This document shows positions 1-24,247 of a DNA stretch of 39,411 nucleotides, piece after piece. The position numbers and the translations under genes were made by a program. Position 1 is the stretch's first letter. Every line of letters begins with the position of its first letter. This DNA comes from Leucoraja ocellata (taxonomy: Eukaryota): the NCBI GenBank assembly GCA_036785375.1, contig JAWMAR010004817.1, positions 1-39,411 on the forward strand, in the 5' to 3' direction. Below the pieces are notes generated by a model. That model searched no databases and was not told the DNA's origin. It saw only the letters and a list, made by a program, of their open reading frames with translations.

Positions 1-220
1 GGTGGGAGTATGGAACAAGCAGCCAGAGGAGATAGTTGTGCCAGGGACTATCCCAACGTTTAAAAACCAGTTAGACAGGTAAATGGATATGACAGATTTG
101 GAGGGATATGGACCCAATACGGGCAGGTGGGACGAGTGTAGATGGGTCGGTGGTCGATGTGTGAAAGTTGGGCCGAAGGGCCTGTTTCCACACTCTATGA
201 CTGACTCTCTTTGACTCTAT
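1..220 (+). mobile_element. CR1-clade LINE 3' end (also ~14560-14800 and ~29680-29935)
   Basis: Decayed ORF2 C-terminus (WNK.PEEIV...FKNQLDR), GGCCGAAGGGCC stem-loop and CTCTATGA-type tail. Confidence 0.8.
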
Positions 221-1144
221 GGGGCATCATGTAGCATCTGCGGATCGGCATTTGCGGAGGTAATAATGAACAGCCACGAGCCAGTGCAATCTTTCGCGTG
301 TTCACGTTGCAAAGTTTCTCCCTTGTCAGTTTTGCCCGTGCCCGTGCTGGAGTGCCCGTGTTCCATTCAACTTTAATTGACTATGGATGTGCTGTATATA
401 GAATTCCTGTCTTCCTTCAAAGCCGAAAGAACTCTGGAAGTAGGCGGTGAGAGCCAATATGACCCCTTTTACTTCACTCATATGTGCATTAATTTGGTCA
501 GGCGACCTTTACACTTTGAGTCGTGAATTACTGCGCATTACAACAGGATAGTATCACAGACCACTTTTACAAGCACGACACACGTCGGGTAGTCAAAATA
601 GCCCCCAAAAACGGCAACTTTACTGACATTTGTAGTGATGTTCTGTCCCCTCAGGTCTTTTCTAAATGATCTGATACACAAGTAGAAGGGCAGCCTGTGG
701 GGTTTATCATTTCTAAAATGACAAAGATATCTAAATATAGATTTAATGTGCTTTTTAATAAAACAGTGCTGATGCTGTGACTGTGATCATGTTATGTTCA
801 GCGATACGGAGGTAGACAAAAATGCTGGAGAAACTCAGCGGGTGAGGGAGCGAAGGAAATCAGCGATACGGATTCAGTTGGTCCGTTTAGATAAAATATT
901 TCTATTCCGTTTTCATTGTTGATTAAACAGTTACCGAATATAATATTTAAAACTCGCAATCTGTTTAGTGTATATCTGCGGGGGGTTCATACAGAACATT
1001 AAAGATTGTTTGTTTATAAAGAAGGGACAACTGTGACAATCCTTTTCATTCTGCTGGATGTATGAAGCTTTTTAGAAACACAAGTCTCTAAAATAAGACC
1101 TGCGTGTTTCACAGGGGCGAATATTTTGAGGAAGAATCTGGCAA

Positions 1145-1230
1145 TTTCTGATTGGCTTCGACGAGCATACCGGTTTGATTGGTTTGGATAATTAAACACA
1201 CGGTGACATATCGTCATTCCATTTATAAAG
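1145..1230 (+). promoter_or_regulatory. IgL copy 1 promoter: two inverted CCAAT boxes, split CRE-like element, TATA box
   Basis: ATTGG at 1151 and 1178, TGACATATCGTCA at 1204-1216, TATAAA at 1224-1229, about 70 bp upstream of the ATG. Identical in all three copies. Confidence 0.7.
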
Positions 1231-1299
1231 AGAGCCAGAGAGCAAGATTACACGCCACTTGTCCTGGAAACTGCCGCCCCATCGGAGCTCAGTCGGTTA

Positions 1300-1354
1300 A
1301 TGAACATGTCTTATTGGATCCGTGTGGTCGGTGCGTTGGTGTTTTGCGCAGTTT
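1300..1354 (+). CDS. IgL: IgL copy 1 leader exon (MNMSYWIRVVGALVFCAV)
   Basis: ATG at 1300 (second in-frame ATG at 1306), hydrophobic signal peptide, phase-1 donor GTGAGT at 1355. Confidence 0.9.
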
Positions 1355-1472
1355 GTGAGTATTTTACTTCCCTGGACATTATACTTATTTCTGTTCACCA
1401 TTAATTTGGGATTACCTCCCACACTTCAACAAACTTAACAATTTTTTTTTTCTGATATTTCTCCTTTCTCAG

Positions 1473-1817
1473 ACATAAGCGCGGCTGTTACAGTAACTCA
1501 GCCGCCTTCGATGTCCACCTCTACGGGACAGAACATACAAATACCCTGCACCATATCGGGTGCCAGTTCGGGCGCTAACTATGTCTCGTGGTACCAACAG
1601 ATTCCTGGCAAAACTCCCAAGTATCTATTCTACCATTATACCGGCGGCAGCATTTATAAAGGCACGGACATTCCAGACCGTTTTTCCATCTCGGTGTCAG
1701 GCAGCTCTGTAACATTCGCAATATCTAACGTTCAATCGGTGGATGCTGCTGACTATTACTGTGCCAAAGGGGATAGTGGTTTACATTTCGGTAAAGGAAC
1801 GAGGCTGGGTATTGGCG
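1473..1817 (+). CDS. IgL: IgL copy 1 germline-joined VJ exon
   Basis: Polypyrimidine tract plus AG at 1471-1472. V-set hallmarks TQPPS, first Cys, WYQQ, PDRFS and DYYC run directly into the J motif FGKGTRL. Donor GTAAGT at 1818. Confidence 0.96.
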
Positions 1818-2811
1818 GTAAGTAAAATATATTCTTCGAACAGCGCGCTGTTTTCATTTTGTTTTAATGCAGATATTGCTTGATTTAATGTCCTGAGTTC
1901 ACCTGATACTTGATTGGGCCAGTTGTATTTCAGTGCAGATGGTGCGATCTTGCTATACAGATGTTCCGAGTTCACTTGGACGTAACTCAGTGAAATGACT
2001 GGGAAAGCGAGCTAATGCTTTGTCTTGAGCTTCGTTCAATAACTTGCGGAAATATTTGCAGTGATTGTCCAGATATGAAAGGAAATTGCTTGAGTAACGG
2101 GTTCATCAACGTTAATATTCAGCACTGTCAAAAATCCGGTTGACGGGTTGAACAAGGATATCAAAATGCCAAATGCGAAAGGAGAAAGTTTCGCACATTT
2201 CCTTCAGAAATTGTGTTTAATACGTAGAGCAGCTTTTCGTGGACGCAGCCGTGTATTTCAAATTTAAATGAACATTCGAACTACAATGTAATTCTTGCTT
2301 GTGAACTATATCTGCGAATCGGTGACCGTGGCCTTCGAAGACTAGTTTCCATATATTTTTGCCGAACTTAAATAGCGTCGCCCTCCATCTCAATGGGGCC
2401 AACAATTAAATAAGTTTAAATCTGTTATTATAAATGTCGCGACCGCGAATCGTTTATATCTGCTGATATATTTAAATAAATGTAAATCCGGAAATGTGTA
2501 GTAAAATGAATATTATAAAAGTTATAATGATGTATTCAGTTTTATAAAATACTGCAGCCATGATCTATCACAGATGGGTTTCCCGGTGTTTATACAGAGG
2601 GTAGACAGGATCTATTTTAGTTGCTTTCACGCACTTTATTTATTGTTCACCCAATTACAATAAACACACTATAATGGTTTGAAAAAGGTCGAGAATAAAA
2701 CGACATTTCTATAAATGAATAAATGAGTGCTTTAATGAGATGTATTTTCGGTAAATAATGATATCTCAACGACAGCATTTCTCCAATTAAATGTGACTTC
2801 TTATTAAACAG

Positions 2812-3133
2812 ATCCTCGGGCACCGATCGTGACGGTCCTGCCGCCTTCAGCCGATGAAGTTACCTCAAAGGGCATCGCCACCCTGGTGTGTTTGGTGAAC
2901 GGCTTTAATCCGGGCTCGGTCGCCGTGAGTGGACAGTCGACGGCAGTGCAAGAAATAGCGACGTTGAGACCAGCCCGATCCAGCAGGATAAGGACAACAC
3001 GTTCAGTCTCAGCAGTTACCTGACTCTGACAGCCTCAGACTGGAACTTACACGACCTTTACTCCTGTGTGGTTAAACACCAGGCTCAGGCAAACCCACTT
3101 AAGACAACTATCGAGAGATCCAGCTGTATCTGA
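2812..3133 (+). pseudogene. IgL: IgL copy 1 constant exon (type II/lambda-like) with a 1-bp frameshift
   Basis: Acceptor AG at 2810-2811. Reads GCCGTGAGT at 2922-2930 where copies 2 and 3 have GCCGTTGAGT, giving a premature TGA at 3021-3023. The ancestral stop is at 3131-3133. Could be an assembly indel. Confidence 0.8.
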
Positions 3134-3396
3134 TGTTGGAAACGTGAGGCTGACCTGACTAAGTTAGTTTATCATCATTGGGTTCGTCCATGTGACAAAG
3201 TTAGTAATGTACTGGACTTCGGTGTTTTCGTTCATAAATGCCATTTGTAGTTGAAACTTCGATTTTTATGACGTTCACTTTAAATGTAGTTCTTTCGAAA
3301 GAATGTCGTTCTTGAATGAAGCATCAAGTAGATTCAATTGCGTTATCCAACAGCATGGATGTTGTTATTGTACCCATGGTATCTTTGTAGCCGTTC

Positions 3397-3402
3397 AATA
3401 AA
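3397..3402 (+). terminator. Polyadenylation signal, IgL copy 1
   Basis: AATAAA about 265 bp after the stop, followed by GT/T-rich sequence. Conserved in all copies. Confidence 0.7.
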
Positions 3403-4524
3403 GTTTAAAAAACGCATTTCAAATGCATTGTTGATTCCCTTTGGTTTATTTCTGACCCGAACCATGATGGCTTAACACGGGTTGCGTTGTCTCGTAGATG
3501 TGAGCTAGCAACACTGATTTTGATTCTCTATTTCGATCACTAATTGCAATCGTACAACAGTCGTGAGCCACTCGTCCATTTATACCACGCGTTCTACAGC
3601 GCTTTGTCAGTCCGTGAATCAGAAAAAGAACCATATAAACCAAGCAGGGCAAACGTGTTCTTAACCCCAAATTATCACAGAAATAAACATAAAAGACTGT
3701 TCATACTCAGTAAGTCGGGCGGTATGTGGGAAGTGAGAAATAGATTAGACGTTTCAGGCTGTTTAAAAAAATAAATAAAACAAACGTCCCTACCAGCCTC
3801 GTGCGTTCAGGGTTTGTTAAATATGTCTTTGTTCATAATGTGCCCGGTTACATAATTAAATAAAATACGTGTGCATACGTGGAAATCAGGAAATTTGGAA
3901 ACGACATTAATTCCCAACACATCAGCAGGTTTCTGTAAACTGATGGGTTGTTCGCACCTCCCCTTTACACCCCTCGCACTAAGCATGGCACCTCCATCCT
4001 TCATCACAGAAGGCCGTGACTTTCACACTAATCGGTGACGGGGTTTGTATTTAAATATTTACAAATATTACACCTTATTTCTTCTTTATTTCTTCTGATT
4101 GTCAGCTTTAAAAGAAACAGGGTGATTATTGGCGTTAGCAGAACAAGTCACTGAGTTTGTATGTGGCGTGTCCGTGTCTCACGGTGGTATTACACGGGAA
4201 CTGGGTAACAACACTCTCAATAAAGCAAGATAATATCTACAGAAAGATGCGATGAGTGCACGGCAGCTTCATATATACAGGAGCAGAAAGAGAGCGAGGG
4301 GTGGGAGAGAGAGAGAAGAGAGAGGGGGGGGGGGAGAGGGGTGAGAATAGGACGGGGGCGGGGTTAATAGCGAACAATGAGGGAACTATATGCTATAGTT
4401 AGAGGACATTCAGTCACGGACAAACCCCTGACCTCTGTCACAAATCGCTTTTCACTTATTGCAAGCTTTATTCCCAATTATTTTCACGTTACATGAGCAA
4501 CCTGGGCTTAAGTCTTAATGAATG

Positions 4525-4736
4525 GGAAGGAGCTGCAGATGCTGGTTTAAAGCAAAGATAGACACAAACATCTGGAGTAAATCAGCGGGTCAGAAAGCAT
4601 TTCTGGAGAAAAGGAATCGGTGAAGTTTTGGGGCGAGACCCTTCTTCAGACTGTTTGAAGAAAGGTCTCGATCCGAAATGTCACCTACGCATTTTCTGCT
4701 GAGATGCTGTCTGACCCGCTAATTTACTCCAGCTTT
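4525..4736. mobile_element. Palindromic Penelope-like terminal repeat with decayed hammerhead cores (also 34573-34783; mostly deleted in unit 2)
   Basis: About 80-bp imperfect inverted arms centred near 4652, with (C/T)TGAAGA-stem-GAAA motifs at the centre. Family assignment is inferred from the motif. Confidence 0.6.
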
Positions 4737-5125
4737 ATAGAAACATAGAAACGTAGAAAATAGGTGCAGGAGTAGGCCATTCGGCCCTTCGAACCTGCAC
4801 CGCTATTCAATATGATCATGGCTGATCATCCAACACAGTATCCTGCACCAGCCTTCTCTCCGTACCCTCTGATCCCTTTAGCCACAAGGGCCACATCTAA
4901 CTCCCTCTTACATATAGCCAATGAACTGGCCTCAACTACCTTCTGTGGCAAAGAATTTCAGAGATTCCAGAGATGTGTGAAAACATGTTTTCCTCATCTC
5001 GGTCCCAAAAGATTTCCCCCCCTTTCCTTAAACTGTGACCCCCTGTCCTGGACCTTCCCAACGTCGAGAATAATCTTCCTGCATCTAGCCTGTCCAACCC
5101 CCTAAGAACTTTGTAAGTTTCAGCC
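4737..5125 (-). mobile_element. CR1 LINE 3' fragment (also 19158-19482 and 34784-35172)
   Basis: (CATAGAAA)n tail on the + strand, GGCCATTCGGCC stem-loop, and minus-strand ETYKVLRGLDRLDAGRLF. Confidence 0.85.
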
Positions 5126-5555
5126 ATGATCTCATTATGTGTCTTATCTTTTCTAAATGATCCGGATTGTATGCATTTTTGGCTGATTCGAATAAATGGT
5201 CACATATCTGCAATTGCTCACCTGCTGGTTAGTTATTTTGGAAATTCCTCTAAATCTGTAAATACTGAGCCTACTTTCACTCGGAAAAAATGGTCAATTA
5301 AAACGCCTTGACTATGCCCCTCATTCAAATCACCATTATACCCTCCCTGTTCAAAGGAACCAATTCCGGTTATTCTCAGGCTGCCATTATCATGCCCATT
5401 TTCTTCCCAATTTCTTCTGCGGCTTGTAATGAAGGAGCCGAAAACAAAGATTTCCTTGCCTTTTCCTTCCGTTCCCGTAGTGTCCTGGTTATCCATTGTG
5501 AGCTCCACCTTTCCCTGGTCATCGATATCGGTTTTCATTTGTTCTGAATCTTTTC

Positions 5556-5762
5556 ATAGAGACATAGAAACATAGAAAATAGGTGCAGAAGGAGGCCATT
5601 CGGCCCTTCGAGCCAGCACCGCTATTCAATGAGATCATGGCTGATCGTCCCCAATCAATAACCCGTGCCTGCCTTCTGCCCATATCCCTTGATTCCACTA
5701 GCCTCTAGAGCTCTAACTCTCTCTTAAATCCATCCAGTGATTTGGCCTGCACTGCCCTCTGT
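5556..5762 (-). mobile_element. CR1 LINE 3' end (also ~19923-20132 and ~35609-35789)
   Basis: Same 8-bp tail and stem-loop as the 4737 element. Confidence 0.85.
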
Positions 5763-6380
5763 GACAGGTACTGACCCAAAATGCCGCATTTTCTCCTGTC
5801 TCGTAATGTAATTACAACATTTTACCATTGCCTTTCGAAGATGTCTATGTGTGAGCGCCAGGACCGGCGAGAAAATCATGCACTTACACTCATGCCATGT
5901 ATAAATGCTGTCGGCCTCTCTCGCTCATCATCCGCGTGAATGCTGTTAAACACGATGTCAGTGTCATAACTTCAGATCTATCCACGATGGCCCACAATGT
6001 CTGTGCGAACCTAATGCCAATGTCATCTGCCATCCATATATAATGTCTATATCCCTCCATTACCTATCTGTTCACGTGTTTGCCTAAATGTCTCTTGAAC
6101 CTTGCTGGGTATCTACTTACACCGCTTCGTCTAGCAAAGCGTTGCACACTTTCTGTTTAAAAAAGACATGCAAAGTGTGGCCCCTTCAAACGTCCCCTCG
6201 CCTACTTTAATAAACTATATTATATAATACTTCGGCCCTGGACTCCTAAGTAAAGCGACTTATCTTCACTAAGGGTAATAGATAGGGATAGGATATCGAT
6301 GCAGTGTCTGGCCAACAACACATTAATCCCCAAAATAAATCAATGGATAGGGATTCAATAAAACGACAGTGTTAGTTAAC

Positions 6381-6584
6381 GTGTAGGAAGGAACTGCAGA
6401 TGCTGGTTTAAATCGAAGATCGATACAAAATGCTCGAGTAACGCAGCGGGACAGGAAACGTCTCTAGATGGAAGGAATGGGTGACGTTTCGGGTCTGAAT
6501 CAGGGTCTCGACCGGAAAGGTCACAAATTCCTTCTGTCCAGAGATGTTGCCTGTCGCGCTGAGTCACTCCAGCATGTTGTATCT
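6381..6584. mobile_element. Second palindromic Penelope-like terminal repeat (also ~20750-20953; absent from unit 3)
   Basis: Same GAAGGAACTGCAGATGCTGG family, inverted arms, centre CTGAA(T/G)CAGGGTCTCGACCGGAAA. Confidence 0.6.
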
Positions 6585-6639
6585 AATGTTGGTTAAGGTC
6601 TGTTTCGTTTTAGAGAGCTCGGAAAAATGCTGAAAATGC

Positions 6640-6890
6640 TGAAACCTCCAGGGTGGTTATCTTCGGTTTGCTTCCAATTCCTCGTGCTGGCGAGAGCAGG
6701 AACAGGGAGATACGGGACCTGAATGTATGGCTGAGGAACTGGTGCAGGGGCAGGGATTTTGATTCTTAGACCACTGAGATGTGTTTTGGAGTAAGGGGGA
6801 TCTGTACAAAAGGGACGGATTGCACTTTAACAGACGGGGGACCAGCATTCTGCAGGCAGGGTTTCCACTGCTACACAGGTGGTTTTAAAT
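6640..6890 (+). mobile_element. CR1 ORF1 esterase (SGNH-like) fragment, disrupted (also ~21018-21270)
   Basis: Translates as TSRVVIFGLLPIPRAGESRNREIRDLNVWLRNWCRGQGF...DLYKRDGLHFNRRGTSIL, with in-frame stops. Confidence 0.75.
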
Positions 6891-6894
6891 TAAA

Positions 6895-7156
6895 CTAGAC
6901 CAAGTGCAGACCCGTTTGGGGGGAGGGGGGGGGGGGGGGATTTTCTTTAAAATTTGTACATAAACGACGAAATTTAATCAGGAGTGGATACTTGGAATGA
7001 AAAATGAAATCTCTACCGAAATGGAAACATTCTGGGCGTTTGTGGGTCTGGTGTTGGCGTAGCAACGAATCAAAGGCTGGCACCCACAAGCTGGGAACCA
7101 CAAGTCAAGCAGAAACACAGCCAGCCAGCAACCAGCCACAGAGTTTTAATATTATA
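6895..7156 (-). mobile_element. Short, internally deleted non-autonomous Helitron (also 21273-21530; variant at 36454-36791)
   Basis: CTAG 3' terminus at 6895 followed on the minus strand by T. Shares terminal sequences with the adjacent long copy, head-to-tail. Confidence 0.7.
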
Positions 7157-8787
7157 CTAGACCAAGTGCAGACCCGTTGGGTCTGTTTCCCCATCGCGCG
7201 TTTGCGGGGGAAGAGGGGGGGGGGGGGGGGGCTGGGGCATCACACTCACACTAACCGCCCCCCAAACACACAGATGGGGGGGAGGGGGAGAGGGGGAGAC
7301 GGGGTGGGGAGAGGGGGTGGGTGAGAACAGGGGAGGGAGGAGAGAGGGGGAGGAGGAAACGGGAGAGATTTGGGAGAGGGAGAGCAGAGCGGGGTATGGG
7401 GAGAGAGAGGGGGATGGGAAGGGGGAGGATAGTGGGGAGTGGGAGGAGAGCGGGGAGGTCAGGAAGCGGGGGGGTAGGGGGTGGGAGAGGGGTAGCGGGG
7501 ATTGGTGCAAGAGAGAGGTGAAGGGGGGAGATGGGGGCGAAGAGAATGGGAGGGGGGAGATGGGGGCGAAGAGAAGTGAGGAGGGGGTAGGAGGGGAGGA
7601 GGGAGAGGGTGAGGACAGAGGGCGGAAGGGGAGGAGGAGAGTGGGGTGGGGGAGGGGATGAGAGAGGGGTGGGGGAGGGGGAGAGAAGGGTGGGGGAAGG
7701 GGAGAGACGGAGGAGGAGGGAGGAGGGGGAGGAGGGAGGGGAAGGAGGAGGGAGAGGGGGAAGAGTGTGGAGGGAGCGGGAGAGTGGAAGGGGCGGGGGA
7801 ATGGGGGGGAGAGGGGTAGGAGAGAGAGAGGGCGAATAGTGGTGAGGGAGGGGGAGGATAAAAGTGCGGAAGAGGGGCAGAGGGGTAGGGGGAGTGGTGG
7901 AAGAGGCAGAGGTGGGTAGGGGGGAGAAGTGGGGGGAGAGAGGGGTGGGGGTTGGCGTTGGAGGGGTGGAGGGAGAGGGGTGAGGAGAGAGGGGGAAAGG
8001 GAGGAGGAGAGGGGTGTGGGAGGGGTGAGAGATGGTGGGGGGGGAGGGGGAAGATGGTGGGGAGGCGGAGAGAGGAGAGAGTGAGGAGAGGATGGAGGGG
8101 AGGGGGAGGGAGGAGGGAGAGGTGGAAGAGTGTGGAGGGAGGGGGAGAGGGGTAGGGGGTGGGGGGGGAGTGTGGAGGGAGGGGGAGAACGGAGAGAGGG
8201 GGAAGAGTGGATGGGAGAGAGAAGGGAGGGGGAGAGAGATGGGTGGGGGAGGGAGATGGGGAGGAGTGGGGGATGGGGGGTGGGGGTGAGATAAGTGTAA
8301 GGCTGGGGAGGGAGGGCAGGAGGGAGATGGGGTAGGGGAGGGAGGGCGAAGAGTATGGAATGAGGGGGAGAGGGGTGGGGGATAGAGGGGAAATAGTGGG
8401 GAGGGAGAGTGGAAGGGGGAGGGGTAGGGAAGTCCATCTGTTCCCCATTCCCTATCACCCCCAATCCTCTTTCTCTATTCCCACACACGCGATGACGCGC
8501 TTCGACACAGGCTGCGGGGGTGGGGGGAGGGGCTGGTGCTGGGGCTGCGGCAAAGGCATATGTAAATTGATCCATTCCGATTGGACATCCGTGAACATTG
8601 GGCATTGTGACATCACACGATGGAACGTTCAACAACATTCGATGGGTGAGAGCTGTTTTTTTTAAATTTGGTGGGTTGGGGGGAGAAGGATTTTATTAAA
8701 AATGTGTACATAAACACGACGAAATTTATGGAGTGGATACTTGGAATGAAAAGTGAAATCTCTACCGAAATGGAAAAAATCTGGGCG
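7157..8787 (-). mobile_element. Non-autonomous Helitron with a purine-rich internal tract, 5' end deleted (also 21531-23139)
   Basis: The minus strand ends CAGACCC-AAC-GGGTCTG-cacttggt-CTAG|T, a subterminal hairpin plus CTAG, which is the canonical Helitron 3' end. Confidence 0.75.
7205..8430 (+). repeat. G/A-rich low-complexity tract (also ~21580-22790 and ~36840-37180)
   Basis: About 1.2 kb of almost pure purine G-runs. Source of the spurious Pro-rich and Gly-rich ORFs. Confidence 0.95.
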
Positions 8788-9849
8788 CACTGGTGATCAT
8801 TTTCCAATGTTCAATAGATTGAGGATCGGTTCCTGTGGATTGGAGGATAGCTAATGTTTTCCCAGTTTTCAAGAAAGGAGTGAGAGAGAAAACGGGGAAT
8901 TACAGGCCAGTTAGCCTGACTTCGGTGGTGGGAAAGATGCTGGAGTCAATTATTAAATATGTAATAATGGGGCATTTGGATAGCAGTAAAAGGATTAGTC
9001 CAAGTCAACATGGATTTATGAAAGGGAAGTCATGCTTGACTAATCTTCTGGAATTTTTTGAGGATATGACAAGTAAAATCGATCAAGAGGAGCCAGTGGA
9101 TTTAGTATATCTAGACATCCAGAAAGCCGTTGTTAATGACACAAAGCTGGGTGGCAGTGCGAACTGTGAAGAGGATGTTAGGTGGTTGCAGGGTGACCTG
9201 GACAGGTTGAGTGAGTGGGCAGATGCGTGGCAGATTTCAGTATAGGAGTAAAGAGGTACTTCTGCAGTTGTATAGGGCTCTGGTAAGACCACATCTGGAG
9301 TATTGCGTACAGTTTTGGTCTCCTAATCTGAGGAAGGACATCCTTGTGATAGAAGCAATGCAGCGTAGGTTCACGAGATTGATCCCTGGGATGGCGGGAC
9401 TGTCCTATGACGAAATATTGAAAAGACTAGACTTGTATTCGCTGGAGTTTAGAAGGATGAGGGGGTATCTTATGGAAACATATAAAATTATAAAAAGGAC
9501 TGCACAAGCCAGATGCAGGACAAATGTTCCCAATGCTGGGCGAGTCCAGAACCAGGGGCCACAGTCTTGGAGGCCATTTAAGACTGAGGTGAGAAAAAAC
9601 GTTTTCACCCAGAGAGTTGTGAATTTGTGGAATTCCCTGCTACAGAGGGCAGTGGAGGCCAAATCACTGGATGGGTTTAAGAGAGAGTTGGAGCTCTAGA
9701 GGCTAGTGGAGTCAAGGGATATGGGGAGAAGGCAGGCACGTGTTATTGATTGGGGACGATCAGTTAAGATCGCAATGAATGGCGGTGCTGGCTCGAAGGG
9801 CCGAATGGCCTCCTTCTGCACCTATTTTCTATGTTTCTATGTTTCTATG
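8788..9849 (+). mobile_element. CR1 ORF2 (RT) remnant with internal deletions and 3' tail (also 23140-24927)
   Basis: NYRPVSLTSVVGKMLE, QHGFMKGKSCLTNLLEFF, LYRALVRPHLEYC, and a (TTTCTATG)n tail at about 9825-9848. Confidence 0.92.
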
Positions 9850-10099
9850 AAAAGATTCAGACCAAATGAGACCCGAAATCGACGATCAGGGATAGGTGGA
9901 GCTCACAATGAACAACCAGAACACTGAGGGAAGGGGAGAAAAAGGCAATGCCGGGAAGACTCAAATGTCTGCTGTTGGCTCCGTCAGAAAAATTACAAGC
10001 CGCAGAAGAAATTGGGCATGATCATGGCAGCTCGAAAGTAATCGGAATTGGTTCCTTTGAACAGGGAAGGTATAATGGCGATTTGAATGAGGGACATAG

Positions 10100-10615
10100 T
10101 CCGCTCACCCAACCTATATCCAAGTCACCCTACAGCCCCATACCACCTTCCTCATACCTCACACTGTCACCCAGCTTTGTGTCATCCGCAAACTTGGAAA
10201 TGTTACTTTTAATTCCCTAATCAAGATCGTTAATATACATTGTAAATAACTGGGGATCCAGCACTGAGCCTTGCGACACCCCACTAGTCACTACCTGCCA
10301 TTCTGAAAAGGATCCATTAATTCCTTCTCTTTGCTTCCTGCCAGACAACCAGTTCCTTATCCATGTAAATACCCTACTCCCAATACCATGTGCTCTAATT
10401 TTGCACACTAATCTCTTGTGTGGGACCTTGTCAAATGATTTTTGAAAGTCCAGATACAACACACCATCTGGCTCTCCCTTTTCCATTCGACTTGATAGAT
10501 CCTCAAAAGTTTCCGGAAGATTAGTCAAGCATGATTTCCCCTTCATAAATCAACACTGACGTTGTCCGATCCCTTCATTGCTTTCCAAATACGCTGCAAT
10601 TACATCTTTAATAAT
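10100..10615 (-). mobile_element. CR1 RT fragment (also ~25190-25700)
   Basis: YLDFQKSFDKVPH and SGVSQGSVL on the minus strand. Confidence 0.9.
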
Positions 10616-10654
10616 TTAATAATATTAAATTCCGGACTGACAGATTATTGATTG

Positions 10655-10800
10655 GTTATGGGTGACAGGGGGTACGGAAATAAGACATTAGAATGGGGTA
10701 GAGAGGTTAAGTTGGATCAGCCATTATTGAATGGTGGAGCAATCTTGATGGGCCGAATGGCCTAATTCTGCTCCTAGAACAATGAATTTATGAACATGAA
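10655..10800 (+). mobile_element. Short CR1-type 3' end (also ~25740-25870)
   Basis: GATCAGCCAT..TTGAATGG..GGGCCGAATGGCCT motif. Confidence 0.65.
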
Positions 10801-11636
10801 TTATGCGTCTGGTTCTTGAATGCCTTGGAGACCATTTTGTTGAGGCTATACAATATGATTAGAATGGATTATGTTGACGGCACAGACTGTGGGCTTGTTG
10901 CACTTGTGGCAAAGAGAGACAAAGGATGGGATTATGTCATTAAAATAAAAACTTAATCCTGTACAATGTCGGACTTCTTGAAGGTTTTCGGAGCTGAGGT
11001 CATCACGAGATGTGGCGAGGAAGTGATCACAGCCATTTTGCTATTTTTGATGCATTATCAGAGTCTTGAGAATTTGGTATTGAGTGGGGAACTGGAATGA
11101 GATGGAATGGAGATAGATTATTTTGGTTCCAACACGATCTTTATTATAGAAAATACGAGAAAATACTCATATAGCAGGAAATCGCACTCCTTTCTGCTCG
11201 TTAAGCCTGAATAATAAGAAGTCACATGAATTTCTCCTCTTCCAGATTCCCGTTTGCTATAGCTGGCCTGGAGAACTCGAAAGTCCTTGCACATTTCTGG
11301 GTCTAATGTGCAATCTTTCTCTGTGTCTCTTGAAGATGATTTCCGTGAGCTGGATCGAAACATTCATTTATACAATGAATAAATCTGATCTCGAAACAAA
11401 AGTAAATTCAGTTTTAAAACTAGTTGTTCTTCTTTGTACTCAAGTAACAGTAAGCTAGTTATTAAAGCAAGGGCCGAGCTAATCTCGGATGTCTCTCAGA
11501 ATGAAATTAAGATATCCCAATAGACATCTGGAAGTGCAGCGGGGTCAACACTGTTTTGTTCGTACACCTTGACCTCTTTCTTGACTGTTCAACTTTAAAC
11601 AATCCTTCGTCAATGCACTCTGCTCAATCTTTGACA

Positions 11637-12750
11637 TGGCATTGACATGGGTAGGGGATTGGTTTGGAAACAGGAAACAAAGAGTAGGAATAAACGGGTC
11701 CCTGCCAGAATGGCCGGCAGAGGCGAGTGGAGTGCCGCAAGGCTCAGTGTTGGGGCCGCAACTATTTACAATATATATATTAATGATTTAGATGATGAGA
11801 TTAAAAGTAACACTAGCAAATTTGCAGATGACACAAAGTTGGGTGGCATTGTGAACGGCGAAGAGGATGCTAGGAGGTTGCAGGGTGACTTGGACAGGTT
11901 GAGTAAGTGGGCAGATGCAAGGCAGATGCGGTATAATGTAAACAATTGTGAGTTTATCCATTTTAGTGGCAAGAACAAGGAGGCAAATTTCAATCGAATC
12001 TCAATGGTGTCAGATTAGGAAAAATGGAAGTGCAGCGAGACCTGAGTGTCCATGTACACCAGTCAATTAAAGAAAACATGCAGATACAGCAGGCAGTGAA
12101 GAAAGCTAATGAGGCGTTGGCTTTCATAACGAGAGGTTTTGAGTAGAGGATTAAAGAGATCCTTCTGCAGTTGTACAAGGCCCTGGTGAGACCACATCTC
12201 GTGCATTGTGTGCAGTTTCGGTCTCCTAATTTGAGGAAGGACATCCTTGCTATTGAGGCAGTGCAGCGTAGGTTTAAGAGGTTAATCCCTGGGATGGCGG
12301 GAATCTCATATGAGGAAAGATTGGAAAAATAGGGCTTGTATTCACTGGTATTTAGAAGGATGAGGGGGCATCTTATAGAAACGTATACAATTATAAAAGA
12401 ACTGACAAGCTAGTCGCAGGAAAAATGTTCCTAATGATGGGGGAGCCCAGAACCAGAGGCCACAATCTAAGAATAAAGTGGACGCCATTTAAAATTGAGA
12501 GGAGAAACATTTTTCACCCAGACAGTTGTGTATTTGTGGAATACTCTGCCACAGAAGGCCATAAAAGCCAATTCACTGGACGAATTTAAAAGTTAGATAG
12601 AGCTCTCGGGGCTAGCGGAATCAATGGTTATGGGGAGAACGCAGGCACGGGTTACTGATTGTGGATGATCAGCCATGATCACAATGAATAGCGGTGCAGG
12701 CTTAAAGGGCCAAATGGCCTCCTTCTGCACCTATTTTCTATGTTTCTATC
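11637..12750 (+). mobile_element. CR1 ORF2 3' portion with tail (also ~26740-27846)
   Basis: GVPQGSVLGP, YINDLD and KFADDTK RT motifs, many frameshifts, TTTCTATG tail. Confidence 0.9.
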
Positions 12751-12894
12751 TAACTTGGACACATCTAATTCATCAACGTTATTCATTTGTATGATGATTG
12801 AGTCTTTGGAAACGCAGTATTTATTGCCTATCCAAAAGTGGGAACACAGAGACACAAGGAACTGCGGATGATAAAACACGAAGTGCTGGAGTAA

Positions 12895-13570
12895 CACGGG
12901 GTGTGCCTCAGGGTTCGGTGCTGGGCCCGTTAATGATTGTCATCTATATCAATGATTTGAATGGGATCATACTTAGTAAGATTAGCAAGTTTGCAGATGA
13001 TACAAACGTGGAAGGTTTTGCAGATAGTAGAGATGGTTGTGAAAAAAGTGCAGCAGGGTCTGGATCAATTGGCCAGGTAGGCTGAGGAATGGTTGATGGA
13101 ATTTAATGCAGAGAAATGTGAAGTGTTGCATTTTGGGAATTCTAACATAGGCAGGACCTGCGCAGTCGACGGTAGATCGGGTGGTCAAAAAAGCTTTTGG
13201 CACATTGGCCTTCATCAGCCCGTGTAATGAGTATAGAGGTTGGGAGGTCTTGTTGCAGATGTATAAGACGTTGGTGACGCCGCATTTAGAGTATTGAATT
13301 CAGTCTGGGCAACCGTATAGGAAAGATTTCGACAAGCTGGAAATGGTACAGAGAAGATTTACGAGGATGTTGCCATGACTAGATGGTGTGAGGTATAGGG
13401 AGGGGTTGAGTAGGCCTGGACTCTATTCGTTGGAGCGCAGAAGTTGAAGGGAAACCTCATAGAGGTGTATAGGGTCGTGAGAGGAATAGATCGGGTGGAT
13501 GTATAGTCCCTTGCCCAGAGGAGGACCGGGTTCATGGTGACGGGCAAAGAATTAATAGGAATCTGAGGGG
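12895..13570 (+). mobile_element. CR1 RT fragment of a different subfamily (also ~28004-28678)
   Basis: GVPQGSVLGPL, YINDL and SKFADDT, with a decayed C-terminal domain. Confidence 0.85.
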
Positions 13571-13571
13571 T

Positions 13572-14555
13572 TCCTATTCAATGTGTGCAAGACACGCTTT
13601 GATACAATTCAAGGTGGTTCACAGAGCTCATATGTCAAAAGATAAGTTAACTCGTTTTTATGGTCATATGAATCCTACCTGTGACAGATGTAAATCTGAA
13701 GTGGCCTCACTGACTCATATGTTTTGGTCCTGCCCTTCTTTGGAAAAATATTGGAAATAATGTTTTGTTACTATTTCTGTAGTCTTAGGCATAGGTTTAC
13801 AAACTGGAATTACTGCAATTTCTGGGCTGCCAATGTTAGATTCTAATCATTTGTCCCGCTCCGCCCATCGGTTGATTGCTTTTACCACATTAATCGCCAG
13901 AAGATCTATTTTATTCAAATGGAAAGACTCCTAACCCTCCGACCACACTCCAGTGGTATTCGGAAACGATATAATGTTTAAATTTTGAAAAAATCAGCAG
14001 TGACACTGTTGAACCCTTGGTTAAATTTGATAAGACTTGGGTAAAATGTATTGAACATTTTCATACACCATAAATTGCTCCCTCTTTAACCGTTATAAAA
14101 AATATTTTATCTCTATAGGGTGGAACAGACATGACGACAAACAGACTTACATTGTTGAAATTCTCAGTTCAGATTCGGGTTTGCTTTGCTTTGTTAAACT
14201 ATTTTATTTTTATGCGTATTTTATTATTATTATTATTATTATTATTATCAAATTTTTTCTTTTTTTTCTTTCTTTAGTTTAGGGGGTCTTTTTTCTGTCT
14301 ATTTCTTTTTGTGCTTTTTTTTTACATTTATAAGTTTCCTTTTAAAGATTTAACTATATTAACATAGAGACCTGGAGGTCTAGATTCATTGTGTATTTTG
14401 ACATTGGTCTCATATCAGGTTATATCTGTTATTAATGTAATCCTGATCCCTATGTATCAATACCATTGTTATGTTTATCATTATTCTTTTTGTTCTGTTT
14501 TTTATGTTTTATTTTTGGAAAGAAAACAATAAAAAGATTTGTTTTTAAATAGAAA
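13572..14555 (+). mobile_element. L1-clade LINE 3' end (also ~28680-29680)
   Basis: Translates as MCARHALIQFKVVHRAHMSKDKL...CDRCKSEVASLTHMFWSCP, the L1 C-terminal zinc knuckle. T-rich 3' UTR with (TTA)n, then AATAAA and an A-rich end. Confidence 0.8.
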
Positions 14556-15722
14556 GGAATATGAGGGGCAACTTTTTCCCACAGAGGGTGGTGGAACAAG
14601 CAGCCAGAGGAGATAGTTGTGCCAGGGACTATCCCGACGTTTAAAAAACAGTTAGACAGGTAAATGGATATGACAGATTTGGAGGGATATGGACCCAATA
14701 CGGGCAGGTGGGACGAGTGTGGATGGGTCGGTGGTCGATGTGTGAAAGTTGGGCCGAAGGGCCTGTTTCCACACTCTATGACTGACTCTCTTTGACTCTA
14801 TGGGGCATCATGTAGCATCTGCGGATCGGCATTTGCGGAGGTAATAATGAACAGCCACGAGCCAGTGCAATCTTTCGCGTGTTCACGTTGCAAAGTTTCT
14901 CCCTTGTCAGTTTTGCCCGTGCCCGTGCTGGAGTGCCCGTGTTCCATTCAACTTTAATTGAATATGGATGTGCTGTATATTGAATTCCTGTCTTCCTTCA
15001 AAGTCGAAAGAACTCTGGAAGTAGGCGGTGAGAGCCAATATGACCCCTTTTACTTCACTCATATGTGCATTGATTTGGTACAGGCAGCCTTTACACTTTG
15101 AGTCGTGAATTACTGCGCAATACAACAGGATAGTATCACATACCACTTTTACAAGCACGACACACGTCGGGTAGTCAAAATAGCCCCCCAAAACGGCAAC
15201 TTTACTGACATTTGTAGTGATGTTCTGTCCCCTCAGGTCTTTTCTAAATGATCTGATACACAAGTAGAAGGGCAGCCTGTGGGGTTTATCATTTCTAAAA
15301 TGACAAAGATATCTAAATATAGATTCAATGTGCTTTTTAAATTAAACAGTGCTGATGCTGTGACTGTGATCATGTTCAGCGATACGGAGGTAGACAAAAA
15401 TGCTGGAGAAACTCATCGGGTGAGGGAGCGAAGGAAATCAGCGATACGGATTCAGTTGGTCCGTTTAGATAAAATATTTCTATTCCATTTTCATTGTTGA
15501 TTAAACAGTTACCGAATATAATATTTAAAACTCGCAATCTGTTTAGTATATGTACGCGGAGGGTTCATACAGAACATTATAGATTGTTTGTTTATAAAGA
15601 AGGGACAACTGTGACAATCCTTTTCATTCTGCTGGATGTATGAAGCTTTTTAGAAACACAAGTCTCTAAAATAAAACCTGCGTGTTTCACAGGGGCGAAT
15701 ATTTTGAGGAAGAATCTGGCAA

Positions 15723-15808
15723 TTTCTGATTGGCTTCGACGAGCATACCGGTTTGATTGGTTTGGATAATTAAACACACGGTGACATATCGTCATTCCAT
15801 TTATAAAG
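15723..15808 (+). promoter_or_regulatory. IgL copy 2 promoter (CCAAT x2, CRE-like, TATA)
   Basis: Identical to the copy 1 promoter. Confidence 0.7.
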
Positions 15809-15877
15809 AGAGCCAGAGAGCAAGATTACACGCCACTTGTCCTGGAAACTGCCGCCCCATCGGAGCTCAGTCGGTTA

Positions 15878-15932
15878 ATGAACATGCCTTATTGGATCCG
15901 TGTGGTCGGTGCGTTGGTGCTTTGCGCAGTTT
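15878..15932 (+). CDS. IgL: IgL copy 2 leader exon (MNMPYWIRVVGALVLCAV)
   Basis: ATG at 15878, signal peptide, donor GTGAGT at 15933. Confidence 0.9.
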
Positions 15933-16053
15933 GTGAGTATTTTACTTTCCCGGACATTATACATATTTCTGTTCACCATTAATTTGGGATTACCTCCCAC
16001 ACTTCAACAAACCTAATATTTTCTCTTTTGTTCTGATATTTCTCCTTTCTCAG

Positions 16054-16398
16054 ACGTAAGCGCGGCTGTTACAGTAACTCAGCCGCCTTCGATGTCCACC
16101 TCTACGGGACAGAAAATACAAATACCCTGCACCATATCGGGTTCCAGTTCAGGCGCTAAGTTAGTCTCGTGGCACCAACAGATTCCTGGCAAAACTCCCA
16201 AGTATCTATTCTACTATTCTAGCAGCGGCACCATTCATAAAGGCACGGACATTCCAGACCGTTATTCCATCTCGGTGTCAGGCAGTTCTGTAATATTCGC
16301 AATATCTAGCGTTCAATCGGTGGATGCTGCTGACTATTACTGTGCCAAATGGGATAGTGCTTTATATTTCGGTAAAGGAACGAGGCTGGGTATTGGCG
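16054..16398 (+). CDS. IgL: IgL copy 2 germline-joined VJ exon
   Basis: AG at 16052-16053, intact V-set domain fused to FGKGTRL (CDR3 AKWDSALY), donor GTAAGT at 16399. Confidence 0.96.
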
Positions 16399-17392
16399 GT
16401 AAGTAAAATATATTCATCGGACAGCGCGTTGTTTTCTTTTTATTTTAATGCAGATATTGCTTGATTTAATATCCTGAGTTCACATGATACGTGATTGGGC
16501 CAGTTGTATTTCAGTGCAGATGGTGCGATCTTGCTGTACAGATGTTCCGAGTTGACTTGGACATAACTCAGTGAAACGGCTGGGAAAGCGAGCTAATGCT
16601 TTGTCTTGAGCTTCGTTCAATAAATTGCGGAAATATTTGCAGTGATTGTCCAGATATGAAAGGAAATTGCTTGAGTAACGGGATTCACCAACGTCAATAT
16701 TCAACACTGTCAAAAATCTGCTTGACGGGTTGAACAAGGATATCAAAATGCCAAATGCGAAAGGAGAAAGTTTCGCACATTTCCTTCAGAAATTGTGTTT
16801 AATACGTAGAGCAGCTTTTCGTGGACGCAGCCGCGTATTTCAAATTTAAATGAACATTCGAACTACAATGTAATTCTTGCTTGTGAACTACATCTGCGAA
16901 TCGGTGACCGTGGCCTTCGAAGACTAGTTTCCATATATTTTTGCCGAACTTAAATAGCGTCACCCTCCATCTCAATGGTGCCGACAATTAAATAAGTTTA
17001 AATCTGTTATTATAAATGTCGCGACCGCGAATCGTTTATATCTGCTGATATATTTAAATAAATGTAAATCCGGAAATGTGTAGTAAAATGAACATTATAA
17101 AAGTTATAATAATGTATTCAGCTTTATAAAATACTGCAGCCATGATCTATCACAGATGGTTTCCCGGTGTTTATACAAAGGGTAGACAGGATTTATTTCA
17201 GTTGCTTTCACGCACTTTATTTATTGTTCACCCAATTAAAATAAACACACTATAATGGTTTGAAATAGGTCGAGAATAAAACGACATTTCTATAAATGAA
17301 TAAATGAGTGCTTTAATGAGATGTATTTTCGGTAAATAATGATATCTCAACGACAGCATTTCTCCAATTAAATGTGACTTCTTATTAAACAG

Positions 17393-17715
17393 ATCCTCGG
17401 GCACCGATCGTGACGGTCCTGCCGCCTTCAGCCGATGAAGTTACCTCAAAGGGCACCGCCACCCTGGTGTGTTTGGTGAACGGCTTTAATCCGGGCTCGG
17501 TCGCCGTTGAGTGGACAGTCGACGGCAGTGCAAGAAATAGCGACGTTGAGACCAGCCCGATCCAGCAGGATAAGGACAACACGTTCAGTCTCAGCAGTTA
17601 CCTGACTCTGACAGCCTCAGACTGGAACTTACACAACCTTTACTCCTGTGTGGTTAAACACACGGCTCAGTCAAACCCACTTAAGACAAATATCGAGAGA
17701 TCCAGCTGTATCTGA
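17393..17715 (+). CDS. IgL: IgL copy 2 constant exon (type II/lambda-like), intact
   Basis: C1-set motifs ATLVCLV, VEWTVDG, FSLSSYLTL and YSCVV, with the penultimate Cys (SSCI*) used for the H-L disulfide. The spliced CDS is 55+345+323 = 723 nt, in frame. Confidence 0.96.
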
Positions 17716-17979
17716 TGTTGGAAACGTGAGGCTGACCTGACTAAGTTAGTTTATCATCATTGGGTTCGTTCATGTGACAAAGTTAGTAATGTATTGGACT
17801 CAGTGTTTTCGTTCAGAAATGCCATTTGTAGTTGAAACTTCGATTTTTATGACTTGTTCACTTTAAATGTAGTTCTTTCGAAAGAATGTCGTTCTTGAAT
17901 GAAGCATCAAGTAGATTCAATTGCGTTATCCAACAGCATGGATGTTGTTATTGTACCCATGGTATCTTTGTAGCCGTTG

Positions 17980-17985
17980 AATAAA
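17980..17985 (+). terminator. Polyadenylation signal, IgL copy 2
   Basis: AATAAA at the homologous position. Confidence 0.7.
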
Positions 17986-20900
17986 GTTTAAAAAACGCAT
18001 TTCAAATGCATTGTTGATTCCCTCAGTTTTATTTCTGACCCGAACCATGATGGCTTAACACGGGTTGTGTTGTCTCGTAGATTTGAGCGAGCAACACTGA
18101 TTTTGATTCTCTATTTCGATCACTAATTGCAATCGTACAACAGTCGTGAGCCACTCGTCCATTTATACCACGCGTTCTACAGCGCGTTGTCAGTCCGTGA
18201 ATCAGACAAAGAACCATATAAACCAAGCAGGGCAAACGTGGTCTTAAACCCCAAATTATCACAGAAATAAACAGAAAATACTGTTCATACTCAGTAAGTC
18301 GGGCGGTATGTGGGAAGTGAGAAATAGATTAGACGTTTCAGGCTGTTTAAAAAAAAAATCAAAAACGTCCCTACCAGCCTCGTGCGTTCAGGGTTTGTTA
18401 AATATGCCTTTGTTCACAAGGTGTACCGCTACATAATTAAATATAATACGTGTGCATACGTGGAAATCTGGAAATTTGGAAACGCCATTAATTCCCAACA
18501 TATCAGCAGGTTTCTGTAAACTGATGGGTTGTTCGCACCTGCACTTTACACCCCTCGCACTAAGCATGGCACCTCCATCCTTCATCACAGAAGGCCGTGA
18601 CTTTCACACTAATCGGTGACGGGTTTTGTATTTAAATATTTACAAATATTACACCTTATTTCTTCTTTATTTCTTCTGATTGTCAGCTTTAAAGAAACGG
18701 GGTGATTATTGGCGTTAGCAGAACTGCCACTGAGTTTGTATGTGGCGTGCACGTGTCTCACGGTGGTATTACACTAGAACTGGGCAACAACACTCTCAAT
18801 AAAGCAAGATAATATCTACAGAAAGATGCGATGAGTGCACGGCAGCTTCATATAGACACATGCAGAAAGAGAGCGAGGGGTGGGAGAGAGAGAGAGAGAG
18901 AGGGGCGGGGGGTGGGGGGGGAGAGGGGGGTGAGAATAGGACGGGGGCGGGGTTAATAGTGAACAATGAGGGAACTATATGCTATAGTTAGAGGACAATC
19001 AGTCACGGACAAACCCCTGACCTCTGTCACAAATCGGTTTTCACTTATTCCAAGCTTTATTCCCAATTATTTTCACGTTACATGAGCAACCTGGGCTTGA
19101 GTCTTAATGAATGGGAAGGAGCTGCAGATGCTGGTTTAAAGCAACGATAGACACAAACCGCTATTCAATATGATCATGGCTGATCATCCAACTCAGTATC
19201 CTGCACCAGCCTTCTCTCCATACCCCCTGATCCCTTTAGCCACAAGGGCCACATCTAACTCCCTCTTACATATAGCCAATGAACTGGCCTCAACTACCTT
19301 CTGTGGCAAAGAATTTCAGAGATTCCAGAGATGTGTGAAAACATGTTTTCCTCATCTCGGTCCCAAAAGATTTCCCCCTTTTCCTTAAACTGTGACCCCC
19401 TGTCCTGGACCTTCCCAACGTCGGGAACAATCTTCCTGCATCTAGCCTGTCCAACCCCCTAAGAACTTTGTAAGTTTCAGCCATGATCTCATTATGTGTC
19501 TTATCTTTTCTAAATGATCCGGATTGTATGCATTTTTGGCTGATTCGAATAAATGGTCACATATCTGCAATTGCTCACCTGATGGTTAGTTATTTTGGAA
19601 ATTCCTCTAAATCTGTAAATACTGAGCCTACTTTCACTCGGAAAAAATGGTCAATTAAAACGCCTTGACTATGCCCCTCATTCAAATCACCATTACACCC
19701 TCCCTGTTCAAAGGAACCAATTCCGGTTATTCTCAGGCTGCCATTATCATGCCCATTTTCTTCCCAATTTCTTCTGCGGCTTGTAATGAAGGAGCCAAAA
19801 ACAAAGATTTGAGTCTTCCCGGTCTTGCCTTTTCCTTCCGTTCCCGTAGTGTCCTGGTTATCCATTTTGAGCTCCACCTTTCCCTGGTCATCGATATCTG
19901 GTCTCATTTGTTCTGAATCTTTTCATAGAGACATAGAAACATAGAAAATAGGTGCAGAAGGAGGCCATTCGGCCCTTCGAGCCAGCACCGCCATTCAATG
20001 AGATCATGGCTGATCGTCCCCAATCAATAACCCGTGCCTGCCTTCTGCCCATATCCCTTGATTCCACTAGCCTCTAGAGCTCTAACTCTCTCTTAAATCC
20101 ATCCAGTGATTTGGCCTCCACTGCCCTCTGTGACAGGTACTGACCCAAAAGGCCGCATTTTCTCCTGTCTCGTAATGTCATTACAATATTTTACCGTTGC
20201 CTTTCGAAGATGTCTATGTGTGAGCGCCAGGACCGGCGAGAAAATCATGCACTTACACTCATGCCATGTATAAATGCTGTCGGCCTCTCTCGCTCATCAT
20301 CCGCGTGAATGTTGTTAAACACGATGTCAGTGTCATAACTTCAGATCTATCCACGATGGCCCACAATGTCTGTGCGAACCTAATGCCAATGTAATCTGCC
20401 TGCCATATATAATGTCTATATCCCTCCATTCACTATCTGTTCACGTGTTTGACTAAATGCCTCTTGACCCTTGCTGGGTATCTACTTACACCGCTTCTTC
20501 TAGCAAAGCGTTGCACACTTTCTGTTTAAAAAAGACATGCAAAGTGTGGCCCCTTCAAACGTCCCCTCGCATACTTTAATAAACTATATTATATAATACT
20601 TCGGCCCTGGACTCCTAAGTAAAGCGAATTATTTTCACTAAGGGTAATAGATAGGGATAGGATATCGATGCAGTGTCTGGCCAACAACACGTTAATCCCC
20701 AAAATAAATCAATGGATAGGGATTCAATAAAACGACAGTGTTAGTTAACGTGTAGGAAGGAACTGCAGATGCTGGTTTAAATCGCAGATCGATACAAAAT
20801 GCTCGAGTAACGCAGCGGGACAGGAAACGTCTCTAGTTAGAAGGAAAGGGTGACGTTTCGGGTCTGAAGCAGGGTCTCGACCGGAAAGGTCACAAATTCC

Positions 20901-23462: not shown

Positions 23463-24247
23463 AGTATTTAGTATAGGACGTACATGATAAATGGTAGGGA
23501 ATTGAAGAATACAGTTGAACAGAGGGATCTGGGTATAACCGTGCATAGTTCCTTGAAGGTGGAATCTCATATAGATAGGGTGGTAAAGAAAGCTTTTGGT
23601 ATGCTAGCCTTTATAAATCAGAGCATTGAGTATAGAAGCTGGGATGTAATGTTAAAATTGTACAAGGCATTGGTGAGACCAAATCTGGAGTATGGTGTAC
23701 AATTTTGGTCGCCCAATTATAGGAAGGATGTCAACAAAATAGAGAGAGTACAGAGGAGATTTACTAGAATGATGCCTGGGTTTCAACAACTAAGTTACAG
23801 AGATAGGTTGAATAAGTTAGTTCTTTATTCTCTGGAGCGCAGAAGGTTAAGGGGGGACCTGATAGAGGTCTTTAAAATGATGAGAGGGATACACAGAGTT
23901 GATGTGGACAAGCTTTTTCCTTTGAGAATAGGGAAGATTCAAACAAGAGGACATGACTTCAGAATTAAGGGACAGAAGTTTAGGGGTAATATGAGGGGGA
24001 ACTTCTTTACGCAGAGAGTGGTAGCGGTGTGGAATGAGCTCCCAGTGGAAGTGGTGGAGGCAGGTTCATTGGTATCATTTAAAAATAAATTGGATAGGCA
24101 TATGGATGAGAAGGGAATGGAGGGTTATGGTATGAGTGTAGGCAGGTGGGACTAAGGGGAAAAAAATTTGTTCGGCACGGACTTGTAGGGCCGAGAAGGC
24201 CTGTTTCCGTGCTGTGATTGCTATATGTTATATGTTATATGTTATAT
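23463..24247 (+). mobile_element. Young 5'-truncated CR1 insertion nested in an older CR1, unit 2 only
   Basis: Uninterrupted 223-aa ORF2 C-terminus (23484-24155) and a (GTTATAT)n tail. The empty site GATTTAGTATATCTAGAC is present in unit 1 near 9099-9116. Confidence 0.92.

What the first reader, a model, noticed from the sequence alone, without database searches (positions are those of the whole stretch)
1588..1680. Long CDR2 V domain paired with a type II/lambda-like C: possible distinct V family or isotype
Seen: the distance from the conserved Trp to the Arg of PDRF is 30 residues rather than the usual 26, so Kabat CDR2 is 11 aa (HYTGGSIYKGT). CDR1 is 13 aa, FR3 has standard length, and CDR3 is short. 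FR3 is also atypical (SISVS, TFAIS, QSVD). Established: kappa and most lambda V domains have a 7-aa CDR2, while long CDR2 typifies sigma, sigma-cart, lambda-2-like, IGLV4/5 and VpreB domains. From memory the C exon most resembles shark type II C, whose usual V partners have a short CDR2. Inference: this may be an under-described V family, a lambda-2-type gene, or a V/C shuffled cluster.
Basis: partly seen in the sequence, partly recalled or inferred. Interest (0 to 1): 0.7.

Follow-up and report, generated by a model that had tools for sequence, protein, structure and literature searches.

The report
Skate lambda antibody genes, long-CDR2 family
These are pre-joined lambda antibody light-chain genes of a skate, from an old, widespread variable-domain family with a long second binding loop, not a new light-chain class.

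Summary
In detail: Trp-to-Arg is 30 residues and Kabat CDR2 is 11, with CDR1 13, standard FR3 and CDR3 8. All three tandem germline-joined L-VJ-C clusters in the window share this.

The C exon is lambda/type II: 67-69% identical to sandbar-shark lambda chains, 47-52% to sigma. Long CDR2 is common on this C: 48 of 127 lambda-type database proteins, in 18 of 23 species including a ratfish. They form one V clade (99/100) beside the short-CDR2 family. Both families share a chromosome-scale contig in 12 of 16 species.

Lambda-2 is ruled out on length, since its CDR2 is short (PMC5985310). V and C trees do disagree, but inside lambda: the V families are about 50% identical while their C exons reach 90-93% in ratfish and horn shark. 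That points to C homogenisation, not a cross-isotype swap. No sigma-2, kappa or lambda-2 sequence was obtained, so a sigma-2 origin of this V is untested.

The flagged copy has a frameshifted C exon; copies 2 and 3 are intact.

The parts
1115..1299 (+). Proximal promoter of cluster 1: two inverted CCAAT boxes (1151, 1178) and a TATA-like site (1224); no exact octamer
   Evidence: 0 of 185 positions vary among the three copies
1300..1354 (+). Leader exon, cluster 1 (ATGs at 1300 and 1306), GT donor
1473..1817 (+). Germline-joined VJ exon, cluster 1 (long-CDR2 family 'B')
   Evidence: (V-set); no RSS-like site in the window
1634..1666 (+). 11-residue Kabat CDR2 (7 IMGT), predicted to lie on the C'-C'' hairpin
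1763..1786 (+). 8-residue CDR3; third residue is Gly here but Trp in 49 of 51 family members
2812..3133 (+). Lambda/type II C exon of cluster 1, one base shorter than in copies 2 and 3 (gap near 2925); stop at 3021, 203-aa product
3397..3402 (+). AATAAA downstream of the C exon, cluster 1
15878..15932 (+). Leader exon, cluster 2
16054..16398 (+). Germline-joined VJ exon, cluster 2 (CDR2 11 aa)
17393..17715 (+). Intact lambda C exon, cluster 2 (spliced product 240 aa)
31009..31063 (+). Leader exon, cluster 3
31185..31529 (+). Germline-joined VJ exon, cluster 3 (CDR2 11 aa)
32861..33183 (+). Intact lambda C exon, cluster 3 (spliced product 240 aa)
11..39411 (.). Tandem array of about 15-kb units (11-14591, 14592-29713, 29714 to the end), one cluster per unit; longest aligned blocks 91-96% identical

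Best explanation
Three recently duplicated, germline-joined lambda (type II) light-chain clusters of a skate close to Leucoraja erinacea. Chondrichthyan lambda carries two old V lineages: A (CDR2 6-8, FR3 mostly two residues longer) and B (CDR2 9-12, standard FR3). The window genes are a skate sub-family of B. Shown: exon structure, joined VJ, lambda-type C, family membership and V/C tree discordance. Inferred: each intact cluster is expressed without RAG and pairs with IgM or IgW heavy chains through its C-terminal Cys. The long CDR2 extends the C'-C'' hairpin into the binding site, adding germline-encoded variation where CDR3 is fixed and short. V lineages persist while C exons are homogenised between clusters of one chromosome by conversion or unequal crossing-over. 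Copy 1, the flagged gene, is a pseudogene or an assembly error.
For: C of copy 3 is 67-69% identical to 3 of 3 sandbar-shark lambda chains, 69-74% to 6 of 6 spiny dogfish chains, and 47-52% to 20 sigma-like chains. Family B: 48 database proteins in 18 of 23 species plus the 3 window copies; one V clade at 99/100 with sharks and batoids. With CDRs, the FR3 loop and J removed, A and B are sister groups against sigma, each with a holocephalan member (83 of 150 rows). A and B hits share the same longest-contig length in 12 of the 16 species that have both. On the C tree B needs 13 changes and an AU test rejects a B clade, p 6.8e-7 (42 of 149 rows). Ratfish A vs B: V 50%, C 93%; horn shark: V 46-49%, C 90-93%. 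Among the 3 copies, 16 of 96 CDR bases vary against 9 of 246 other VJ bases (p 1e-4), and all 14 pairwise CDR2 differences are replacements. The AlphaFold model (pLDDT 92) has strands at 49-55 and 59-62 around CDR2. Published lambda CDR2 range is 3-7 IMGT, and all chondrichthyan lambda genes are germline-joined (PMC5985310, PMC5192425, PMC4279169).
Against: No sigma-2, kappa or lambda-2 sequence is in my trees, and the IMGT pattern 8/7 is exactly that reported for sigma-2, which is also all-joined in skates. With a sigma root, the window C and its skate relatives fall outside the other lambda C exons (100/90, 81/78), and the window C is only 67-71% identical to other skate lambda C exons. The ratfish protein sits in B on a long branch with moderate support (93/72), A has SH-aLRT 21, and the bootstrap had not settled; A was unresolved. 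The database name 'lambda-1 light chain-like' is no isotype evidence, as it is also given to sigma and sigma-2 genes. Expression and antigen contact were not tested; synonymous sites in CDR2 are few (about 8).
Confidence: 0.85

Rival explanations
1. Ancient cross-isotype shuffle: a sigma-2-type V was captured onto a lambda C before the holocephalan-elasmobranch split and founded family B.
For: CDR1/CDR2 of 8/7 IMGT equals the invariant sigma-2 pattern; A and B V domains are only about 50% identical; C exons move between V lineages; PMC5985310 proposes conversion or exon shuffling for C-kappa/C-lambda.
Against: 7 is also inside the lambda range. B and A group together against sigma at 100/100. 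The B profile's best single-chain PDB matches include a chain named IGLV5-37, and the alignments shown score lambda-type chains above kappa-type ones. Not tested directly against sigma-2.
Confidence: 0.08
2. A chondrichthyan lambda-2 gene or a new isotype.
For: PMC5985310 leaves open that lambda-2 survives in unexamined cartilaginous fish. The window C is a somewhat divergent skate lineage.
Against: Lambda-2 has CDR1 5-7 and CDR2 2-3; the window has 8 and 7. C-lambda-2 is reported as its own stable clade, whereas family B C exons are interleaved with type II C exons and share contigs with them.
Confidence: 0.03
3. A recent, skate-specific CDR2 insertion, or an assembly artefact.
For: The window's FR3 and C belong to a skate-specific sub-lineage; copy 1 carries a frameshift.
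Against: The same architecture occurs in galeomorph and squalomorph sharks, rays, sawfish and a ratfish, and in all three copies.
Confidence: 0.02

Closest known systems
Chondrichthyan IgL lambda (type II, NS3)
   Same: Single V-J-C clusters, germline-joined VJ, C 67-74% identical to sandbar shark and dogfish chains, CDR1 13.
   Different: The classical chains retrieved are short-CDR2 family A; the window V is 44-54% identical to them.
[quoted passage not shown]
   Same: V 95.5% and 80% identical to copy 1; C 93% and 91% identical to copy 3; CDR2 11 and 10.
   Different: Both are intact, whereas copy 1 is frameshifted. They are automatic annotations, not described genes.
Hydrolagus colliei immunoglobulin light chain P0154 (nr)
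   Same: CDR1 13, CDR2 11, standard FR3, CDR3 8, lambda-type C.
   Different: V only 48% identical; accession and source paper unknown to me. That type II was first described from this species (Rast et al. 1994) is recalled, not read.
IgL sigma-2 (type I, NS5, sigma-cart)
   Same: IMGT CDR1 8 / CDR2 7; all joined in skates.
   Different: Reported to have its own C clade; the window C is type II-like. No sequence comparison was possible.
Mammalian long-CDR2 lambda V and VpreB
   Same: The model aligns over 109-110 residues with antibody light chains and VpreBJ (3bj9, Z 17.9, rmsd 1.9; best Z 18.7, rmsd 1.6). That several top chains are IGLV4 or mouse V-lambda-x is recalled.
   Different: 36-44% identity; the Z values tie with short-CDR2 chains; orthology not shown; the mammalian lambda V genes rearrange somatically.

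Membership tests
IgL lambda (type II/NS3) | Cluster organisation with one V, one J, one C | tested here: met
   Three L-VJ-C units
IgL lambda (type II/NS3) | VJ joined in the germline | tested here: met
   Open VJ exon in 3 of 3 copies, no RSS-like site in the window. Not diagnostic: skate sigma-2 is joined too.
IgL lambda (type II/NS3) | C domain of type II | tested here: met
   67-69% to 3 sandbar shark lambda chains vs 47-52% to sigma; lambda side of the tree 100/100. Kappa, sigma-2 and lambda-2 absent from the tree.
IgL lambda (type II/NS3) | V domain groups with lambda among all five isotypes | tested here: inconclusive
   Groups with family A against sigma only
IgL lambda (type II/NS3) | IMGT CDR1 3-9 and CDR2 3-7 | tested here: met
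   8 and 7, converted from Kabat 13 and 11 by standard numbering (recalled); ranges
IgL lambda (type II/NS3) | Lies at the lambda locus | tested here: inconclusive
   Indirect: A and B hits share longest-contig length in 12 of 16 species, differ in 2, no data in 2. The window holds no flanking marker genes.
IgL lambda-2 | Short CDR1 (5-7) and CDR2 (2-3) | tested here: not met
   8 and 7
IgL lambda-2 | V and C in the lambda-2 clades | not tested
   No lambda-2 sequence was retrieved
IgL sigma | CDR1 4-7, CDR2 9-10, and sigma C | tested here: not met
   V 35-43% and C 47-52% to the sigma-like set. That set fits sigma by lengths and by the catshark locus position.
IgL sigma-2 (type I/NS5) | CDR1 8 and CDR2 7 (IMGT) | tested here: met
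IgL sigma-2 (type I/NS5) | V and C in the sigma-2 clades | not tested
   No sigma-2 sequence among the hits listed; the C is close to type II instead
IgL kappa | CDR2 of 3 (IMGT) | tested here: not met
   7

The most novel reading that the evidence does not exclude
Family B is a V lineage older than the shark-chimaera split that is either the deep counterpart of mammalian long-CDR2 lambda V and VpreB, or a sigma-2-type V captured onto lambda C. It has been kept beside the short-CDR2 family while their C exons are continually homogenised. That would date both main lambda V architectures to before the bony/cartilaginous fish split. The B profile's best single-chain PDB matches include IGLV5-37, while the A profile's include the lambda-6 chain JTO, but indels alone can drive that ranking.
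Probability: 0.2. Interest if true: 0.6.

Novelty: new member of a known kind. Interest (0 to 1): 0.27.

Why it matters
CDR lengths are used to assign light-chain isotypes. This case shows that in cartilaginous fish an 8/7 IMGT pattern does not by itself mean sigma-2, and that lambda has two old V families. Because these genes cannot rearrange, the germline array is the starting repertoire, so its CDR-focused divergence and C homogenisation can be measured directly from genomes. The two-family split may be thinly documented: I did not see it stated in the parts of nine open-access papers read, but the primary papers were not available. The window genes themselves are ordinary members with near-identical annotated relatives.

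Tried and rejected
Lambda-2, sigma and kappa were rejected on CDR lengths, and sigma also on identity. A mixed-isotype profile search meant to bring in sigma-2 and kappa listed only the best 120 of 356 hits, all lambda- or sigma-type. Single-sequence PDB searches were dominated by multi-domain constructs and did not discriminate. Foldseek and VIA-align confirm a light-chain V fold, but the top Z values tie. Database names were rejected as isotype evidence. No exact octamer and no RSS-like site was found. The first splicing attempt used acceptors one base off and was redone. Rows dropped: P0071, P0113 and P0121 (V incomplete or broken), P0031 (teleost tandem-V model) and one unnamed hit. Nine literature searches showed no listing that describes two chondrichthyan lambda V families. 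Rast 1994 and Criscitiello and Flajnik 2007 were not read, so absence from print is not shown. bioRxiv supplements and metagenome or viral collections were not examined.

Full report
OBSERVATION. The V domain at 1473-1817 has its Trp codon at 1589-1591 and the Arg at 1679-1681, 30 residues apart. Kabat CDR2 is 11 residues (1634-1666), CDR1 is 13, FR3 has standard length and 8 residues lie between the second Cys and the J Phe.

ANATOMY. The window is a tandem array of about 15-kb units, each with one leader / joined VJ / C cluster on the + strand. All splice sites are GT-AG. Copies 2 and 3 splice to 240-aa chains ending in Cys-Ile. Copy 1, the flagged gene, lacks one base near 2925 and stops at 203 aa, losing the second half of the C domain. 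Copy 1 also has Gly at CDR3 position 3, where 49 of 51 family members have Trp. One-base indels occur at 2.9 per kb among the copies, so pseudogene and assembly error are both open. No RSS-like site and no exact octamer occur in the window.

RELATIVES. Three searches were seeded with a window V, a window C and a mixed alignment (the last listed 120 of 356 hits). I examined 150 named chondrichthyan proteins plus the 3 window V domains; 150 of these 153 parsed. They fall into family A (79; CDR2 6-8, FR3 mostly two residues longer), family B (51 with the window copies; CDR2 9-12, 11 in 40) and a sigma-like set (20). B occurs in 18 of 23 species: skates, rays, sawfish, both shark superorders and the ratfish Hydrolagus. 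The sample is biased toward B by the queries and is clustered at 90% identity. The nearest protein, from Leucoraja erinacea, is 95.5% identical in V to copy 1.

ISOTYPE. The C of copy 3 is 67-69% identical to the three sandbar-shark chains named lambda and 47-52% to the sigma-like set. PMC5985310 gives IMGT CDR2 lengths of 3-7 for lambda, 2-3 for lambda-2, 9-10 for sigma, 7 for sigma-2 and 3 for kappa. The window's Kabat 13/11 converts to IMGT 8/7 (numbering recalled), which fits lambda and sigma-2 but not lambda-2, sigma or kappa. The automatic name 'lambda-1 light chain-like' is also carried by sigma and sigma-2 genes, so I did not use it. A and B hits share the same longest-contig length in 12 of the 16 species that have both, differ in 2 and lack data in 2.

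TREES. On 114 V domains B is one clade (99/100) and A is unresolved. With CDRs, the FR3 loop and J removed (83 of 150 rows, 65 columns), A and B are sisters against sigma and each includes a holocephalan; support is 93/72 for B and 94/21 for A, and the bootstrap had not settled. On 113 C domains A and B are interleaved, largely by taxon: B needs 13 changes, at least 8 forced by starred branches. On 42 of 149 C domains an AU test rejects a B clade (p 6.8e-7), and the A and B labels are no more clustered than shuffles (76 and 230 of 500 as low). Within ratfish, A and B are 50% identical in V and 93% in C; within horn shark, 46-49% and 90-93%; the mean over 160 same-species pairs is 49.5% and 76.8%. 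Against my reading: with a sigma root the window C and its skate relatives fall outside the other lambda C exons (100/90; 81/78). I read this as a skate sub-lineage plus a long outgroup branch, but did not test it. Kappa, sigma-2 and lambda-2 are missing from all trees.

MECHANISM. Shown: joined VJ, an intact reading frame in two copies, and divergence among copies concentrated in the CDRs (16 of 96 vs 9 of 246 bases, p 1e-4; 14 of 14 pairwise CDR2 differences are replacements, on about 8 synonymous sites). The model (pLDDT 92) places CDR2 on a strand pair at residues 49-62 and aligns over 110 residues with antibody light chains (Z up to 18.7, rmsd 1.6). From the literature: all chondrichthyan lambda genes are germline-joined, and joined skate type I genes are expressed and possibly mutated. 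Inferred: RAG-independent expression, pairing with IgM or IgW, antigen contact by the long CDR2, and C homogenisation by conversion or unequal crossing-over.

PAPERS SEEN. PMC5985310: abstract, passages, the phylogeny section, supplementary Table 5 and the text of Figure S9. PMC5192425, PMC4279169, PMC2193156, PMC3308330 and PMC5241823: passages. PMC2192082: abstract and reference list only. PMC12227049: passages, one section and rows of Table S1. PMC7677710: one passage, not relevant. Rast 1994 and Criscitiello and Flajnik 2007: nothing beyond citations. Figures with alignments could not be seen and may already show this family.

VERDICT. Real feature, ordinary class: skate members of the long-CDR2 V family of chondrichthyan lambda. 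Not lambda-2 and not a new isotype; the V/C discordance lies within lambda. What remains interesting is the age of the two V families and their untested relation to sigma-2 and to mammalian long-CDR2 lambda and VpreB. Interest 0.27.

Noticed in passing
window 2925-3023: The C exon of the flagged cluster lacks one base relative to copies 2 and 3, giving a 203-aa truncated chain; pseudogene or assembly error.
   Followed up: partly
window 1115-1299 and its copies before 15878 and 31009: The proximal promoter is identical in all three copies (0 of 185 sites vary, against 5.8% in other non-coding parts; chance about 2e-5 for a region picked after seeing the alignment). It has two inverted CCAAT boxes and a TATA-like site but no octamer.
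   Followed up: partly
window about 32138-32455: An insertion of about 320 bp in the J-C intron of copy 3 only, starting with a TAA repeat; looks like a reversed retroposon 3' end.
   Followed up: no
window 8823-9242 and 38531-39334: Reverse-transcriptase fragments (Pfam RVT_1 in 2 of 4 ORFs scanned), probably decayed LINE elements between the clusters.
   Followed up: partly
window about 7250-8300, 21640-22800 and 36850-37450: Long G/A-rich low-complexity tracts, one per repeat unit; possible recombination-prone sites.
   Followed up: no
database proteins P0006, P0007, P0008: The window's sub-family is found only in skates among the hits and is divergent in both V and C; its C is only 67-71% identical to other skate lambda C exons.
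   Followed up: partly
window 4800-6340 and its copies: Downstream of the genes copies 1 and 2 become more alike than either is to copy 3 (47 of 81 variable sites single out copy 3), whereas the J-C intron is even (16/16/17); a hint of mosaic history.
   Followed up: no
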